Shown here: one piece after another, positions 16,777-24,275 of the stretch | Numbering within the stretch: the first letter of the stretch is position 1 | Layout: each line of letters begins with the position of its first letter | UHGV virus genome: UHGV-0389216 | DNA from: a virus | Direction: 5' to 3' (one strand) | Length of the DNA: 42,736 bases | Made by a program: the position numbers and the translations under genes | Notes under the pieces: model-generated | Databases searched by the model: none | Seen by the model: the letters and a program-made list of their open reading frames with translations, nothing else | Told to the model about the DNA's origin: nothing

Positions 16777-17538
16777 TTACGAGGAAGCGTTAGCTATTTG
16801 AGCTTGTGTAAATTCGAAACCAGAATTTTGTAACCGTTGCACTAGACGAGGAACTGTTTCACGTACATGGTCGTTGAAATTCAGATACAAAATCCCGTTA
16901 GCATCAGAAGGCTGTTCTAGGTGCTGTTTCTGAAGGATTGCTACATTGCTGCGCCCTAAGGACGAAAGAAGCATACCCATCTCGAGTACAACGTTCTGTC
17001 TTGCGCGGGGTTGGATTTCTGCTTCACCGGCGCGCTTTGAGTATCCCATATCATCAGGTGTCAAAAGAACAATCCCGAAACGGGTAGCAGTTTGTCCTTG
17101 CCCAATTTCACGTTCAAGCTCTTCAATAATGGTGAGTCCAGTCCCTCCCGTATTCTGCAAAATGAAATGGTCTGGTAATCCAAGTTTATGAAGGATTAGC
17201 TCAAGTTGTTCCTTTGCAGTATGGTCATGGCCGTGAACAATGAATATCTTTTTGGGAAGCTCAGATGGCTGTTCTACGGCTAGTGGTGTTGCCGTGGGGG
17301 GCGTTCCTAAATGGGACATTATTGCAGTTTCAACATTGGGACGTTCTTGAGGGTTACCTTGAAACTGAATGGTCCGGGTGGTGTAAAGGTTAACAATTAC
17401 GCCATTCGTTAAACGATAGCAGTCATAAGTCTCACGCTGTTCGTGGGAAAAATTGGTGAACCCACACTCCCTCAAAAAGTCAGGAAAAGATTCTCTCGGG
17501 TATGGATAGGTGATCGGCATTTCAGTTAGTTCCTGCAT
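16777..17538 (-). CDS. TIR-like (Cap12/PycTIR-type) nucleotide-binding domain protein with unassigned N-terminal domain
   Basis: 253 aa; C-terminal domain KKIFIVHGHDH...GIVLLTPDD...RQNVVLEMGMLLSSLGRSNVAIL matches the TIR-like predicted nucleotide-binding fold signature as I recall it; N-terminal 85 aa unassigned. Confidence 0.5.
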   Translation of the reverse strand: MQELTEMPITYPYPRESFPDFLRECGFTNFSHEQRETYDCYRLTNGVIVNLYTTRTIQFQGNPQERPNVETAIMSHLGTPPTATPLAVEQPSELPKKIFIVHGHDHTAKEQLELILHKLGLPDHFILQNTGGTGLTIIEELEREIGQGQTATRFGIVLLTPDDMGYSKRAGEAEIQPRARQNVVLEMGMLLSSLGRSNVAILQKQHLEQPSDANGILYLNFNDHVRETVPRLVQRLQNSGFEFTQAQIANASS

Positions 17539-17602: not shown

Positions 17603-19699
17603 TCAATCTTTTTTGTAGTGGTACGCCTCAAAGCCGCCAGCGTTCAGCGGAATATCGGGTGCCCATTCGGGGTTAGTGGAGAGAAGCGCGGAAAGCGCTT
17701 TATCGTTGAAATCTTCTGTGTCTGGTGCTTCGGTGATCACCTCGTCGTGTACCGTTAGCACAATGCTGTAACCGGCACCCTCGATCAGCGGCATGTTTCT
17801 GGCCAGAACGTCGCGGGCGGCCGCCTGGGTGACGTTCTCCACCAGCTTTCCGCCGTAGGTTTTGAGTCGTTGCCATTTACGCGAATAAGAGTTAACACCC
17901 ATGTAGGTGATATTCCCTTGTTCGATAACCGGAGACGGGTAGCATACAGCGCGTCCGGATGGTAGCTGTATGCGCAGCCACGCGCCATCACGTCGGATTT
18001 TAAGATAGCCGCAATACAATGTTTTTTGCGGTGTGGCGATTGCTGTGCGGACAGTGCGCTCCAGCTCGTACCAGAAATCGCAGGTCGCCGGGTGCGCCCT
18101 GCGCCACAGGCGCTTGAGCGAGTCACATGCGATGAATACACGCTCGGACAGGCCAAAGGTCGACTTACGCTTAACCGATTCGTCGTACCAGCTTTTTGCC
18201 TCGCGGATAACATCGCGGGGAATGTTTGGCAGTGCGGCGTTCGCCAGCTCGTCGAGATCGAGACCGTAAACCAGAGCAAAAGTGATGAAAGCCGATACAC
18301 CACCTCCATAACCCAGACCGAGTTCCATGACTTTACCGATCTGACGCATGTGTTTATCAACATCATCTGGTGCAATATCGAAAGCTTTTGCATACGCCAG
18401 TTTATATAAGTCCGGACCCGTTCCAGCGTCATACTCTCTGAATGCATTCAGTTTCCATTCTTCTCCCGCCAGCCATGCCAGCATACGGCCTTCAATGTTT
18501 GACAAGTCACTTACCACTAGTTTTTTGCCTGTTGGCGCGATAATGCAGCCACGTAACGCTGAACTGGTTAGTTCCATGATATTGTCAAACAGCAGGTCTG
18601 CACATCCGGCTTTCAGTGCTTCGATGCCTTCGTCTATTTGTTCCTGTTTTAGTGAAGGGCGGGGAAGGTTCTGGGGCTGGAATAGCCGTCCGGCCCAACG
18701 ACCGGTACGTGATGCCCCGCAGAACTGTAGCGTACCGCGTAAGCGCCCGTCGTGGCTTACGCCTTTCATCAGTGCCTTGTATTTACTGGTGCTGGTAGTA
18801 CTGGCTTGCAGGCGGATAGCCAGCAGTTCTTTCACGGCAGATGATAAATCGGGGTCGGCCATACGACGTTCCAGGGTACTGCGTTGCATGTCTGGTAGCT
18901 CCACACCGTAGGATTCAACGATGTGCTTAATCAACGCGTCCCGTTGTGTGGCTGCCTGCACTTCGCCATCAGTCATTTCCTGTGTACGCTTTGCCAGGCG
19001 CTTTTGCTCCTGGTCTACCGCTTCGATCGCAGCGCGCGCGAGTTGCATGTCCATGCAGACGCCCCGGTCGTTGATCTGCTGATCACGATGCCAGAGCGCC
19101 AGCTCTGTCCCCTGATAATTCCACTTCGGCAGACGTTTATAGACTTCGCGCATTGCTTCGATATCCAGTCCGGCGTAAGCAACAAAGCGCCGCCATTCTT
19201 CCGGATGGGTTTTACTGGTGGCCCGACGCAGTTTGCTGTTTTTCGGACGTGGCTTACAGAACAGCTGGATCAGCGCTTTACCTTCTTTGTCCTTCGCTTT
19301 GTCTTGCGGGACGCCTAGTACTTCGCAGAGTTCCCCCAGAGACCCCGGGAGACCGTGCGCCAGCGCCTGCACCATCGTGTCGCGCCAACGTTCGACTGGC
19401 GGTGCCAGTCGCGGCATTGCATAACGCAGAACGGTGCGGTCGAAGTGAGAGTTATGGAAATAAAGCAGGGTTTCAGGGTCTGCGATTGCTTCGTATAAGC
19501 CGTGTGGAATACCACCACCGGCAGTGATATCCCACACGTTTACTGGCCCGTCGTTGATAGCCCATGCGAAAAGCATCACTTCAACGCCTTCGGCATACGC
19601 ATGGGTACCGTTCGTAATAGGGATTTCGCAATAGGTTTCCAGGTCGCCCCAGAGAATACTTTGATGTTGTTTATTTGAGGGGACTATATTATTTTTCAT
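17603..19699 (-). CDS. family A DNA polymerase with 3'-5' exonuclease domain
   Basis: 698 aa; Exo [10 protein letters not shown]; Pol motif A DLSNIEGR, motif [17 protein letters not shown], motif C VHDEV. Confidence 0.85.
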
Positions 19700-19733
19700 A
19701 TGGGCAAACTAGCTAATAAAGTTGAGGAAAAAA

Positions 19734-19937
19734 ATGTCTGAATCTAAGTTCAAACCTGGAGACCGCGTACAACATCTTTCTGGTGGGCCTGTTCTTGTGG
19801 TTGTTAGCACAGGATATATTCCTGCAACAGCTTTTAATGGCGACTTCATTCGCGTAACTTGTGAATTTTGGGATGAATCTAAAAAAGCTTTCGTAAAACA
19901 GGATTTTGTTGAAACTTCTCTTGAAGATTACGAATAA
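19734..19937 (+). CDS. DUF2158/YodC-like small protein
   Basis: ATG 19734 preceded by GAGG; KPGDRVQHLSGGPVLVVVS motif; only plus-strand gene inside the minus-strand operon. Confidence 0.55.
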   Translation: MSESKFKPGDRVQHLSGGPVLVVVSTGYIPATAFNGDFIRVTCEFWDESKKAFVKQDFVETSLEDYE

Positions 19938-19954
19938 CTCATAACACAATCCTC

Positions 19955-19976
19955 AAAGCGCCCCTAAGGGCGCTTT
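19955..19976. terminator. bidirectional hairpin terminator
   Basis: AAAGCGCCC-CTAA-GGGCGCTTT perfect 9-bp stem between convergent gene ends. Confidence 0.55.
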
Positions 19977-19981
19977 GGCGT

Positions 19982-20530
19982 TTAAATCAGTGCTTCAGCA
20001 TCAGCACCTTCGCTGATATCGTCGAAATCGTCAGCGCTTGCCACTCCGCCGCCAGCGAATGCATCGCCGTCTCGCAGGAACTGGACTCCGCCGAGTGAGG
20101 CATTAATGCGTTTACCGAAATTATTGTCCTGTGCCCAGATATCGATAACGGCGTTTACATAGCACCCTGCATAGGGACGTCCATCAGCCTGAATTAGTGG
20201 CGAACGATCACGATCAAGAACAGCTGGGCGCGCTTTGTTAGCAGCATTCAGGAAGAAATTACCGGGAAAGCCTTCATACTCTGCTTTTTCATCACCATCA
20301 TGCAGGCACAGATTGAGTTTTTTCTCCAGCTGGTTATAAATGGACTCCCACTTCTCCCCCCATTTTTCCTTCGCTACCTGCTTCATAGCTTTACGGATTT
20401 CTTCCAGTTGTGGGTGTTTGGGAGACATTAAAAATACTGCGGAGAAACGCGGATCGCCTTCGCCGTTTACAGTTTTAGCTTCAAACAGAGACGGGAAGGC
20501 CAGACGAACATTGTTCAGCTTCAGTTTCAT
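19982..20530 (-). CDS. phage replication-module protein (DUF2815-like, possible ssDNA-binding)
   Basis: 182 aa with acidic C-terminal tail (DDFDDISEGADAEALI) as in SSB-like proteins; sits between polymerase and nuclease. Confidence 0.5.
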   Translation of the reverse strand: MKLKLNNVRLAFPSLFEAKTVNGEGDPRFSAVFLMSPKHPQLEEIRKAMKQVAKEKWGEKWESIYNQLEKKLNLCLHDGDEKAEYEGFPGNFFLNAANKARPAVLDRDRSPLIQADGRPYAGCYVNAVIDIWAQDNNFGKRINASLGGVQFLRDGDAFAGGGVASADDFDDISEGADAEALI

Positions 20531-20545
20531 GGGGATTTCCTTAAA

Positions 20546-21847
20546 TCAGATGAGGTCTGCGGTTAGTGTATCGTCGGATACGTCGTCGAAATCATTTACA
20601 GGGTTGATATTGAGTGCGGGGCGTGGGTCTGACTCGGGAACGATGGTGGGTTTACCATCAGCTCGTGTTATCAGTGCCTCGACTTTTGACCAACGGCGCG
20701 GACTGGCCTTTTTGATAAGTTTTTCGGCTTTTGTGGGGCTAATAAGTTTAAAGTCGAATACTTCTTCAGTTTTGTACCTGAACTGGTCCTTCAGAAGTGC
20801 GCGAGCTGCCTCTTCATCACTCCAGGCCCGGTTACCTTGTTTTCCTGTTACCAGTTTAAACCCCGGTACCGGATGTCCGGCATTGAGTTCATTGTGAACC
20901 CGGTCTCGTACTGCCTTTAGCCAGGATTCAATAAAGTCGGCCTGGCTATAGATCTCCGCAAGCTGCTCAATGGTTAACAGAGGTACACGTGCGCTGGCAT
21001 TGGTGATTATTTCGCTGACAGGCTTTGTCAGATCTTCAAAATCGCTGGCCGCTGTTTGTAAATGCTGCATTTTCTGGGCAGTGCAAATAGCTTTTGCTTT
21101 ACAGAAGCGGCACTGTTTTTCTCCAGGTATGAAGTTTTCCAGCGGTAGTGTCTCAATGCCTTCGCATTCAGCAATATTGAGAACAAGGATCGCACTGGTT
21201 GCGGCCTCCTGTGCCCGTTCACCGAACGCCTGGAGCTCTTCCACCGTCAGAGCCCACTCTGAAACGTGGTTAAGCCGCGGCTGGTGGATGAACAGGCGCA
21301 CCGTCTCGAAGTCGTACAGCATGCTGAATTGTTCGAGCGCACCCAGAGCATACAGTTGTAGTTGCTCATTTTGTTCTGCATCAATGCGGACGCCTTTGCC
21401 ATATTTCAGGTCGTGGATTTGTAATTCGTTACCCGCGATGATTATGCCGTCGGCAGTTCCGAAAGATTCTTCCACACCCGTTATATGTGAGAAATCAACA
21501 CGTTGTTCAACCAATAGTTCATTATTCTTTGCAAGAGTCCAGACCGTATCAACATACCGGCCGACGGCTTCGACCATTTCATCATCCACCTGTGGGCCAG
21601 ATGTATCATCAGGATTTTCGCGAAGGGGGTATGAGCCGAGAAACATAGAAACATTGCATCCGGCGTAGTGTTCCGGGTGGCTTTGCCTGTTTCGTAGAAC
21701 TTTTTCAGCAAGCGCGTGCGCTGCAGTGCCCTCGATTGCAAAAGTTGTTTCTTTATCCGGTTGTGTGGCCTCCAGCGCCAGACTTCCTGGGCAGCGCATC
21801 CATCGATGCGCTGATGATGGCGAAAGTTGTGCGTGAACGTCTGGCAT
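20546..21847 (-). CDS. PD-(D/E)XK Cas4/RecB-like nuclease (DUF2800-like)
   Basis: 433 aa; N-terminal [14 protein letters not shown]; ...IHDLKYGKG... nuclease core; C-terminal Cys cluster [12 protein letters not shown]. Confidence 0.65.
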
Positions 21848-23209: not shown

Positions 23210-23531
23210 GCCGTTTCCTCATTCAGTTCACTTTGGTGGTTCGGCGGCTTCGACTTGTATCAGTAGACAGTGCTTCGCCGCACCCCAAAGGGAACTTACT
23301 GACCCGTATTGCCGACATCCTGTCCCGCCACGGTCCCGACGCATGGTTTAGAGTCGCGCCGTTCGACTTGTGGCTAAAGATACAATTTGAGTTGTATTAT
23401 GTAAACCACAAATGTGGTATTTTGTGGGGTGTTAATACTACTTTATTGATATTTAAGTGAATTTAATTTGTAAGACTTTACAAATGGGGTAAGGGAGGCT
23501 GTTACACCTCCCGATATTTACGGTGGGAATA

Positions 23532-24178: not shown

Positions 24179-24256
24179 TTAATGTGTATCCCCACATTAA
24201 AAACAATTTTTGTTGTATTTGACAAACCTCGTTTGTTGTTGCTAAATACCACTAAA
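24179..24256. promoter_or_regulatory. operator palindrome plus PR-like promoter of the immunity switch
   Basis: Perfect inverted repeat TTAATGTG-N6-CACATTAA (24179-24200); TTGACA (24219-24224), 18-bp spacer, TAAATA (24243-24248), then Cro start. Confidence 0.5.
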
Positions 24257-24275
24257 ATTGTATGAGGTGAAAGCA

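What the first reader, a model, noticed from the sequence alone, without database searches (positions are those of the whole stretch)
19700..19980. Lone plus-strand DUF2158-like gene with a bidirectional terminator inside the minus-strand early operon
A 67-aa YodC-like protein is encoded antisense to the surrounding operon, starting about 35 bp from the polymerase start and ending at a perfect 9-bp-stem hairpin that also abuts the end of the convergent DUF2815-like gene. Strand-switched small genes within operons are often independently regulated accessory functions.
Basis: seen in the sequence. Interest (0 to 1): 0.3.

Follow-up and report, generated by a model that had tools for sequence, protein, structure and literature searches.

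The report
Small accessory gene cassette in prophage
A real 67-residue gene of the uncharacterised DUF2158/YodC type sits backwards, with its own hairpin terminator, in a swappable cargo slot between the DNA-binding-protein and polymerase genes of a common E. coli prophage; this is an ordinary "moron"-style accessory cassette whose target is unknown.

Summary
ORF 19734-19937 (+) encodes 67 aa. It starts 34 nt from the polymerase start and ends 16 nt before a 10-bp perfect hairpin (19954-19977). The hairpin lies 4 nt from the stop of the convergent DUF2815/Enc34-type SSB gene.

The ORF is a real gene: dN/dS is 0.11-0.16 across three lineages. It misses Pfam DUF2158 directly (12.6 vs 22.3 bits), but profile-profile comparison with bona fide members gives 99.7% probability. 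AlphaFold (pLDDT 90) shows a small SH3-like beta-barrel.

About 330 nt (19652-19981, GC 0.38) form a swappable cassette. In 159 of 5426 complete E. coli genomes the flanks are 97-98% identical, yet none carries this insert. Across 76 related viral contigs the slot is empty (10) or holds about 19 other contents: membrane proteins, Nmad5, Bro-N, SPFH, DUF4145 and a SIR2 defence candidate.

Divergent DUF2158-like alleles (35-40% identity) occupy the same slot, and lytic Klebsiella phage JD001 has a DUF2158 gene at the same SSB-polymerase junction in sense orientation.

"Bidirectional terminator" is only partly supported, because the U-tracts in this window are short. The promoter is plausible but unproven. 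Verdict: an ordinary moron-type cargo gene of unknown molecular function.

The parts
19652..19981 (.). Swappable cassette: the segment that differs from otherwise 97-98% identical prophages. It is about 330 nt and low in GC (0.38 over the 337-nt insert 19652-19988, against 0.47-0.59 in the flanks).
   Evidence: Alignment with phage vB_EcoM-611R5. Anchor-based extraction from five alleles. Composition profile. 159 E. coli genomes match both flanks and none matches the insert.
19661..19695 (+). Candidate sigma-70 promoter(s) for the small gene: TTGATG-18-TATATT (19661-19690), or the overlapping TTGTTT-17-TATTTT (19667-19695). Both lie inside the first codons of the polymerase gene on the other strand.
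   Evidence: Consensus scan gives 9 of 12 matches, but the number of sites in the region is no higher than in shuffles. Comparable weak sites lie 40-45 nt upstream of the ATG in 4 of 5 homologous cassettes. This part is inferred, not shown.
19724..19729 (+). Shine-Dalgarno sequence GAGGAA, 4 nt upstream of the ATG.
   Evidence: Read from the sequence. GAGGAA is also present in L013 and GGAGAG in L016.
19734..19937 (+). Gene for a 67-aa, 7.5-kDa acidic (pI 4.8) soluble protein: a divergent DUF2158/YodC-type SH3-like beta-barrel.
19954..19977 (.). GC-rich hairpin (10 perfect pairs, loop CTAA). It is the terminator of the + strand gene and a possible attenuator of the - strand operon between the SSB and polymerase genes.
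17603..19699 (-). Family A DNA polymerase. Codons 1-15 (about 19655-19699) are an N-terminal extension that always travels with this cassette type: [19 protein letters not shown], against MSNILWGD in relatives.
19982..20530 (-). Enc34/Gp2.5-like ssDNA-binding protein (DUF2815), convergent with the small gene.
20546..21847 (-). DUF2800 PD-(D/E)XK exonuclease, the next gene upstream in the same - strand operon.

Best explanation
This is a moron-type accessory cassette: candidate promoter, ribosome-binding site, one small gene and a hairpin terminator. It sits in a recombinationally hypervariable cargo slot between the SSB and DNA polymerase genes of a widespread temperate E. coli myovirus-like prophage.

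It is transcribed against the early-left replication operon. The inferred logic is as follows. In a lysogen the operon is repressed, so the cassette can be expressed alone, and the hairpin stops its transcript from running antisense into the SSB gene. After induction, operon transcription must cross the cassette to reach the polymerase gene, which would occlude or antagonise the cassette promoter.

The product is a 7.5-kDa acidic, soluble DUF2158/YodC-type SH3-like beta-barrel with no catalytic motif. It most likely acts by stoichiometric binding to a partner, in a phage-host or phage-phage conflict role.

Shown here: the gene is real, it is homologous to DUF2158, and the cassette and slot have the described architecture and variability. 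Inferred: the promoter, the timing of expression and the binding mode. Unknown: the target.
For: The gene is real. dN/dS is 0.11-0.16, and third-position substitutions dominate (11 of 18, 24 of 37 and 21 of 31 in the three pairwise comparisons).

The segment is a cassette. Identity with phage 611R5-type prophages breaks at 19652 and resumes at the SSB stop codon. GC is 0.38 against 0.47-0.59 in the flanks.

The slot is variable.
- 159 of 5426 complete E. coli genomes carry the flanks at 97-98% identity, and none carries this insert.
- In 76 IMG/VR contigs the slot is 86-2568 nt long and falls into 20 content clusters, counting the window's own type. Ten loci are empty, 33 have their longest ORF antisense and 33 sense.
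- Alternative cargo includes a SIR2_2 protein matching PADLOC PDC-S25 at 3.8e-158, plus DUF4145, SPFH, Bro-N and several membrane proteins.

Terminator. The stem is conserved and the loop varies. Canonical T5-6 tracts follow the stem in L013 and L016, and the L098 hairpin is followed by a T-rich tail that the consensus scan flags as terminator-like.

Placement is constant. The identical protein is on record in 113 contigs, and in all seven places examined it lies between the polymerase and SSB genes, while the genes beyond the polymerase vary.

These features match the published definition of a moron: different GC content, own promoter and terminator, and presence in only some related genomes (PMC3594210).
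Against: Promoter evidence is weak. Matches are 8-9 of 12, and the region has no more promoter-like sites than shuffled sequence.

In this window the terminator has only 3 U after the stem on either strand, because of a 7-column gap in the alignment relative to the relatives L013 and L016.

DUF2158 homologues also occur in strictly lytic phages, in sense orientation inside replication or early gene blocks. Examples are JD001 at the very same SSB-polymerase junction, and POP15. The family therefore does not require lysogeny.

There is no match to any PADLOC defence model. No expression data were available.
Confidence: 0.6

Rival explanations
1. Replication-module accessory factor. The DUF2158-like protein works with the neighbouring SSB, exonuclease or polymerase during lytic replication, for example by binding one of them. 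Its place at the SSB-polymerase junction would then be functional rather than incidental.
For: Lytic Klebsiella phage JD001 has the order exonuclease, Gp2.5-like SSB, gp53, DUF2158 (gp54), DNA polymerase, all on one strand. Its exonuclease is homologous to the window's DUF2800 protein (1.4e-16), and gp54 matches the query at 1.6e-7 in a pairwise comparison.

Other DUF2158 homologues sit next to helicase or primase genes.

Divergent alleles (35-40% identity: L089, and P0009 in L098) occupy the same slot while the flanking SSB is 92-93% and the polymerase 91% identical. In IMG/VR this subfamily was found only at this slot.
Against: The slot is empty in 10 of 76 relatives and holds unrelated genes in most others, so the replication module works without the gene. 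Its antisense orientation uncouples it from the operon it would serve. The synteny rests on only two independent lineages.
Confidence: 0.15
2. Counter-defence (anti-defence) or host-takeover protein. It would be a small acidic binder that inhibits a host factor or defence system during infection or induction.
For: The protein is small, acidic (pI 4.8, and 4.55-4.8 in homologues) and non-enzymatic. Alleles diverge much faster than the flanks (35-40% against 91-93%). Homologues occur in lytic phages among early genes.

There is a weak structural and motif resemblance to RNA-polymerase-binding Tudor-like domains (CarD, Mfd RID, UvrD/PcrA) and to the Lon specificity factor HspQ (5ycq, TM 0.65).
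Against: Early anti-defence genes normally lie in sense orientation within early operons, and this one is antisense. All Foldseek hits are non-significant (E >= 0.05). The Tudor-like similarity covers only the first 22 residues. No anti-defence library was available to test against.
Confidence: 0.15
3. The + strand ORF is a chance ORF or annotation artefact, and the real coding or functional content is on the - strand: the 78-aa ORF 19713-19949, or merely an intergenic spacer with a terminator.
For: A 78-aa - strand ORF overlaps the region in the operon's orientation.
Against: The - strand ORF is interrupted by stop codons in L016. The + frame shows purifying selection. The + frame product is homologous to a known protein family.
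Confidence: 0.02

Closest known systems
Pfam PF09926 DUF2158 (E. coli/Salmonella YodC; phage family phrog_3261)
   Same: The size is similar: 54-73 aa in the homologues found here, and 61 aa for Salmonella YodC (PMC5437024). It shares the motif F-K-x-G-D-x-V-x-H-x-S-G-G-P-x-(M/L)-x-V ... C-x-(W/F)-W-D ... F. Profile-profile probability is 99.7%. The predicted fold is an SH3-like beta-barrel. The function of the family is equally unknown. YodC is reported only as a sigma-S-dependent small protein (PMC5437024).
   Different: It falls below the Pfam gathering score (12.6 vs 22.3 bits). It has a longer beta2-beta3 connection of about 8-12 extra residues. It belongs to a narrow subfamily found only in this prophage slot.
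Phage morons (HK97 gp15 type; 'The moron comes of age', PMC3594210)
   Same: It is a single extra gene between two conserved genes, absent from close relatives. It has deviating GC content and its own terminator, and it is positioned so that it can be expressed from a repressed prophage.
   Different: It lies in the early replication operon rather than the late or tail region, and is antisense to it. The promoter is unproven. Expression in lysogens and any host benefit were not tested.
Prophage and satellite defence hotspots (P2/P4-type variable loci; from my own knowledge, Rousset et al. 2022)
   Same: The position is fixed between conserved core genes while the cargo is highly diverse, including candidate defence genes (SIR2 PDC-S25 in this slot, and TIR PDC-S35 next to the polymerase).
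   Different: It belongs to a different phage family and a different position (the SSB-polymerase junction). To my knowledge, and in the searchable literature, this slot has not been described. The cargo here has no defence annotation.
Klebsiella phage JD001 gp54 (DUF2158 domain-containing protein)
   Same: It is a homologous small protein at the same junction between a Gp2.5-like SSB gene and a DNA polymerase gene.
   Different: JD001 is a lytic phage. The gene is in sense orientation, has no terminator of its own directly after it, and encodes 54 aa. Its polymerase is not clearly homologous to the window's.

Membership tests
Pfam DUF2158 (PF09926) | Whole-protein score at or above the curated gathering score (22.3 bits). 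| tested here: not met
   12.6 bits, E 0.12. No hit at E <= 0.1.
Pfam DUF2158 (PF09926) | Demonstrable homology to proteins that do pass the threshold. | tested here: met
   An HMM built from the three close homologues finds 20 proteins at E < 1e-3 among 1.84 billion representatives. Of the 16 short ones, 13 pass the DUF2158 gathering score. hhalign against those 13 gives 99.7% probability, E 3.6e-26, over residues 2-67. One caveat: the 13 were selected by similarity to the query profile.
Pfam DUF2158 (PF09926) | Conserved motif G-D ... G-G-P-x-x-x-V ... C-x-W ... F in a single-domain protein of about 50-70 aa. | tested here: met
   Invariant G9, D10, G18, P19 and V23, and near-invariant V12 and F58, in the 19-sequence alignment.
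Moron (independent prophage accessory transcription unit) | Present at a position where closely related genomes lack it or carry something else. | tested here: met
Moron (independent prophage accessory transcription unit) | Base composition differs from the neighbouring genes. | tested here: met
   GC 0.38-0.41 against 0.47-0.59.
Moron (independent prophage accessory transcription unit) | Own promoter. | tested here: inconclusive
   TTGATG-18-TATATT gives 9 of 12 matches, and similarly placed weak sites occur in 4 of 5 homologous cassettes. The count of such sites is not above shuffles.
Moron (independent prophage accessory transcription unit) | Own terminator. | tested here: met
   The hairpin has z-scores of -3.6 and -4.3. 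It is conserved and followed by T5-6 in relatives, and the L098 homologue is flagged on both strands. In this window the U-tract is reduced to 3 U.
Moron (independent prophage accessory transcription unit) | Expressed from the repressed prophage. | not testable with these tools
   No transcriptome data were available.
Bidirectional intrinsic terminator | GC-rich stem flanked by an A-tract upstream and a T-tract downstream, so that both transcripts end in a U-run. | tested here: inconclusive
   The stem is good. The flanks are AAA and TTT only, which are part of the 10-bp stem. The scan's criterion (at least 5 T in 8) is met only for an alternative - strand pairing and not on the + strand.
Known anti-phage defence proteins (PADLOC-DB v2) | Match to any defence or candidate-defence model. 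| tested here: not met
   No family at E <= 0.01.
CarD/TRCF-RID and PcrA/UvrD Tudor-like RNA-polymerase-interacting domains | Full-domain sequence or structure match. | tested here: not met
   Only residues 3-24 align (hhalign 97%, 22 columns). Foldseek gives TM 0.46-0.55 with E > 0.07. Pfam shows no hit for the query.

The most novel reading that the evidence does not exclude
The SSB-polymerase junction of this common E. coli prophage family is an undescribed conflict-gene hotspot. Its DUF2158-like residents would then be a new class of tiny prophage-encoded effectors: stand-alone SH3/Tudor-like binders that target a central host or phage machine. Candidate targets are the RNA polymerase beta subunit (as CarD, Mfd RID and UvrD Tudor domains do), Lon (as HspQ does), or an incoming phage's replication proteins. 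The effect would be to exclude superinfecting phages or to counter host defence. Such a result would also give the first function for the DUF2158/YodC family.
Probability: 0.2. Interest if true: 0.55.

Novelty: new member of a known kind. Interest (0 to 1): 0.3.

Why it matters
On its own this is a routine prophage accessory gene. There are two modest points of value.

First, it marks a hypervariable cargo slot in a prophage found in about 3% of complete E. coli genomes. The slot had about 20 different contents in 77 loci, including candidate defence genes, so it could be mined for new phage-conflict genes.

Second, DUF2158/YodC is a widespread family in bacteria and phages with no known function. 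This prophage offers natural 'with, without and swapped' variants in near-isogenic backgrounds, which makes a phenotype screen straightforward.

Tried and rejected
- Direct Pfam, NCBIfam and PADLOC assignment of the 67-aa protein gave nothing above threshold.
- Foldseek of two AlphaFold models (pLDDT 81 and 90) against PDB and BFVD gave only generic SH3-like, KOW-like and Tudor-like barrels at E >= 0.01 (EF-P/eIF5A domain I, CarD, Mfd, HspQ 5ycq) and uncharacterised phage proteins. None is usable for function.
- A PDB sequence search with the family profile found no relative.
- A full-domain relationship to CarD/TRCF-RID/UvrD Tudor domains is rejected. Only a 22-residue N-terminal hairpin motif aligns.
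- I looked for a repressor-operator-like motif near the cassette, using the palindrome ACCACAAATGTGGT that lies next to the leftward promoter-like site. There is no copy near 19600-19750 and the total count is not above chance. The true operator is undefined, so the test is uninformative.
- The search for related loci with the broad DUF2158 alignment failed because no conserved stretch was available. A narrower alignment gave one locus. A scan of genome contigs found none.
- The - strand 78-aa ORF is rejected.
- Literature searches on the related phages (vB_EcoM-606R2, 611R5, 689R2), DUF2815/DUF2800 prophages and PDC-S25/S35 found nothing relevant to this locus.

Full report
**1. What is in the sequence**

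The + strand ORF runs from ATG 19734 to TAA 19937 and encodes 67 aa. A GAGGAA Shine-Dalgarno lies at 19724-19729. The family A DNA polymerase gene (17603-19699, - strand; PF00476, phrog_17) starts 34 nt to its left and diverges from it. The Enc34/Gp2.5-like SSB gene (19982-20530, - strand; PF10991, formerly DUF2815, 2.4e-44; phrog_112) converges on it from the right.

Sixteen nucleotides after the ORF stop lies the hairpin CAAAGCGCCC-CTAA-GGGCGCTTTG (19954-19977). It has 10 perfect pairs plus a U.G pair. It ends 4 nt before the SSB stop codon. It folds far better than shuffled sequence on both strands, with z-scores of -3.6 and -4.3. All other credible genes from the helicase (13673) to the small genes next to the repressor (about 22930) are on the - strand.

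**2. Is it a real gene?**

The identical protein is on record in 113 contigs, and two further versions (91% and 81% identical) exist. Among the three DNA versions most substitutions fall at third codon positions, and dN/dS is 0.11-0.16. The overlapping 78-aa ORF on the - strand is broken by stop codons in one lineage. The + strand gene is real.

**3. What family?**

- Pfam DUF2158 scores only 12.6 bits (E 0.12) against a gathering score of 22.3. By Pfam's own criterion it is not a member.
- A profile of the three close homologues, searched against 1.84 billion representative proteins, finds 20 hits at E < 1e-3. Of the 16 short hits, 13 pass the DUF2158 gathering score themselves.
- hhalign between the two sets gives 99.7% probability (E 3.6e-26) over essentially the whole protein.
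- The hallmark motif (F-K-x-G-D-x-V-x-H-x-S-G-G-P ... C-x-W-D ... F) is present.
- The phage counterpart, phrog_3261, is hit at 7.8e-5.
- AlphaFold with the 19-sequence alignment gives pLDDT 89.8 and a five-stranded small barrel.
- Foldseek finds only generic SH3-like, KOW-like and Tudor-like barrels at non-significant E-values.
- The protein is acidic (pI 4.8), soluble and has no catalytic signature.

The family has no known function. In the searchable literature it appears only twice. One paper reports YodC as a sigma-S-dependent small protein in Salmonella. The other lists a weak DUF2158 match in a mycobacteriophage gene table.

**4. Context: a swappable cassette in a hypervariable slot**

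Three E. coli phage records (vB_EcoM-606R2, 689R2, 611R5) and 159 of 5426 complete E. coli genomes match both flanks at 97-98% identity. None contains the insert.

Against 611R5, identity stops at 19651/19652, inside the 5' end of the polymerase gene, and resumes at the SSB stop codon. The intervening ~330 nt has GC 0.38, against 0.47-0.59 in the flanks.

The polymerase in the window has an N-terminus 11 codons longer ([19 protein letters not shown] against MSNILWGD). This extension always accompanies this cassette type.

Other alleles examined carry a + strand gene for a 166-, 199- or 209-aa membrane protein, or a 229-aa protein plus an Nmad5 gene.

A survey of 76 IMG/VR contigs encoding the same SSB shows:
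- Slot lengths range from 86 to 2568 nt.
- There are 20 content clusters, counting the window's type.
- Ten loci are empty. In 33 the longest ORF is antisense and in 33 it is sense.
- Cargo includes a 500-aa SIR2_2 protein matching the PADLOC candidate system PDC-S25 (3.8e-158), plus DUF4145, SPFH/Band 7 and Bro-N proteins.

The TIR-like gene just beyond the polymerase in the window (16777-17538) matches PDC-S35 (1.3e-108). It is itself variable among relatives.

These properties fit the published definition of a moron: presence in only some relatives, foreign GC content and own transcription signals (PMC3594210). They also resemble the variable defence loci described in other temperate phages; that comparison rests on my own knowledge, not on a test here.

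**5. Transcription signals**

*Promoter.* The scan finds TTGATG-18-TATATT at 19661-19690, with 9 of 12 matches. The region as a whole has no more such sites than shuffles. Weak sites at a similar distance (40-45 nt before the ATG) occur in 4 of 5 homologous cassettes; one example is TTGTTA-17-TAATAT in L089. The promoter is plausible but unproven. In the window it would lie inside the first 15 polymerase codons on the opposite strand.

*Terminator.* The stem AAAGCGCCC/GGGCGCTTT is conserved in the 91% and 81% lineages while the loop differs (CTAA, TTCA, CAGC). In those relatives a T6 or T5 run follows on the + strand, which makes them canonical intrinsic terminators. The window has a 7-column gap in the alignment at this point, leaving TTTGGCGTTT. 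The 35%-identical allele in L089 carries almost the same hairpin (AAGCGCCC-TTAA-GGGCGCTT). The L098 allele has a different hairpin that the scan flags on both strands. In the window the scan flags only a - strand site.

*A position-conserved hairpin.* A GC-rich hairpin directly after the SSB stop is present in about 18 of 20 slot alleles. This includes the empty slot, where it is followed by UGUUUUG on the operon-sense strand. A hairpin at this position is therefore a conserved feature of the operon. It may attenuate transcription between the SSB and polymerase genes as well as end the convergent cargo transcript.

'Bidirectional terminator' is thus a reasonable but unproven reading, and in this window the U-tracts are weak in both directions. 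No - strand promoter-like site lies between the SSB and polymerase genes. The polymerase gene is therefore probably reached by read-through across the cassette, which sets up mutual interference with the + strand gene. This last step is inference.

**6. Is the gene just random cargo?**

Three findings argue for a more specific association:
- Divergent alleles sit in the same slot and orientation although the flanking SSB and polymerase are 91-93% identical. These are a 60-aa protein in L089 (35% identity, pairwise E 3e-12) and the 69-aa P0009 in L098 (40% identity).
- In IMG/VR this subfamily was found only at this slot.
- In the lytic Klebsiella phage JD001 a DUF2158 gene lies between a Gp2.5-like SSB gene and the DNA polymerase gene, in sense orientation and downstream of a homologous exonuclease.

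Other phage homologues lie among small early genes near a helicase or primase.

Against a core replication role, the slot is empty or differently filled in most relatives.

**7. Mechanism and rivals**

I rate 'independently transcribed moron-type cargo gene whose product is a small stoichiometric binder acting in phage-host or phage-phage conflict' as most likely (0.6). The rivals are a replication-module accessory factor (0.15) and an anti-defence or host-takeover protein (0.15). An artefact is essentially excluded.

A shared 22-residue N-terminal hairpin motif with CarD/TRCF-RID and PcrA/UvrD Tudor domains, and a TM 0.65 match to the Lon specificity factor HspQ, are leads for partner hunting. 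They are not evidence of membership.

**8. Verdict**

This is a new member of known kinds, namely a DUF2158-type small protein and a moron cassette, and of modest interest. The more useful by-product is the hypervariable SSB-polymerase slot itself.

Noticed in passing
window 16777-17538 (-): A 253-aa TIR-like protein lies directly downstream of the polymerase gene. It matches PF10137 CAP12/Pycsar TIR (2.9e-31) and the PADLOC candidate defence system PDC-S35 (1.3e-108). Among relatives that carry the same 67-aa gene it is replaced by other gene sets (DUF4406/ANR/VRR-NUC, or a HATPase_c protein). This looks like a second variable cargo position.
   Followed up: partly
slot after the SSB stop in L017-L096 (e.g. 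L070, L062, L061, L078); window 19954-19977: A GC-rich hairpin immediately after the SSB stop codon is present in about 18 of 20 slot alleles, including the empty 92-nt slot. The common form is GCCCGG-N5-CCGGGC. In several alleles it is followed by UGUUUUG, UAUUUUC or UCUUUUC on the operon-sense strand. This suggests a built-in attenuator or terminator between the SSB and polymerase genes.
   Followed up: partly
L099 (Klebsiella phage JD001, NC_020204.1 34675-38769): This lytic Jedunavirus has the gene order exonuclease, Gp2.5-like SSB, gp53, DUF2158 (gp54), DNA polymerase on one strand. It is the same junction as in the window, but the small gene is in sense orientation.
   Followed up: partly
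window 19655-19699 (-): The polymerase has an N-terminus 11 codons longer than in 611R5-type prophages. There is no obvious Shine-Dalgarno before its ATG. The extension overlaps the candidate promoter of the small gene and is inherited together with the cassette.
   Followed up: partly
L023 slot (IMG/VR UViG_2548876944_000020) and four similar loci: In these loci the same slot carries a 500-aa SIR2_2 protein in sense orientation. It matches the PADLOC candidate system PDC-S25 (3.8e-158) and, more weakly, ThsA.
   Followed up: partly
L079 slot (IMG/VR UViG_2868941310_000002): Another small antisense gene (58 aa, no family match) occupies the slot. Next to its hairpin is a run of CCA/GGT triplet repeats (CCACCACCACC...).
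   Followed up: no
window 23405-23418 and 24203-24261: The perfect palindrome ACCACAAATGTGGT overlaps a leftward promoter-like site (23405..23377). A 23-nt imperfect inverted repeat lies in the repressor-cro intergenic region. Both are candidate operators of the immunity region.
   Followed up: partly
L103 (ON470588.1) 40486-42739: The phage record vB_EcoM-611R5, labelled a complete genome, ends in apparent host genes: a YfhH-like regulator, a pgpC-like phosphatase and tRNA adenosine-34 deaminase. The related records, and perhaps this window, may therefore be prophage excerpts that include host flank.
   Followed up: no
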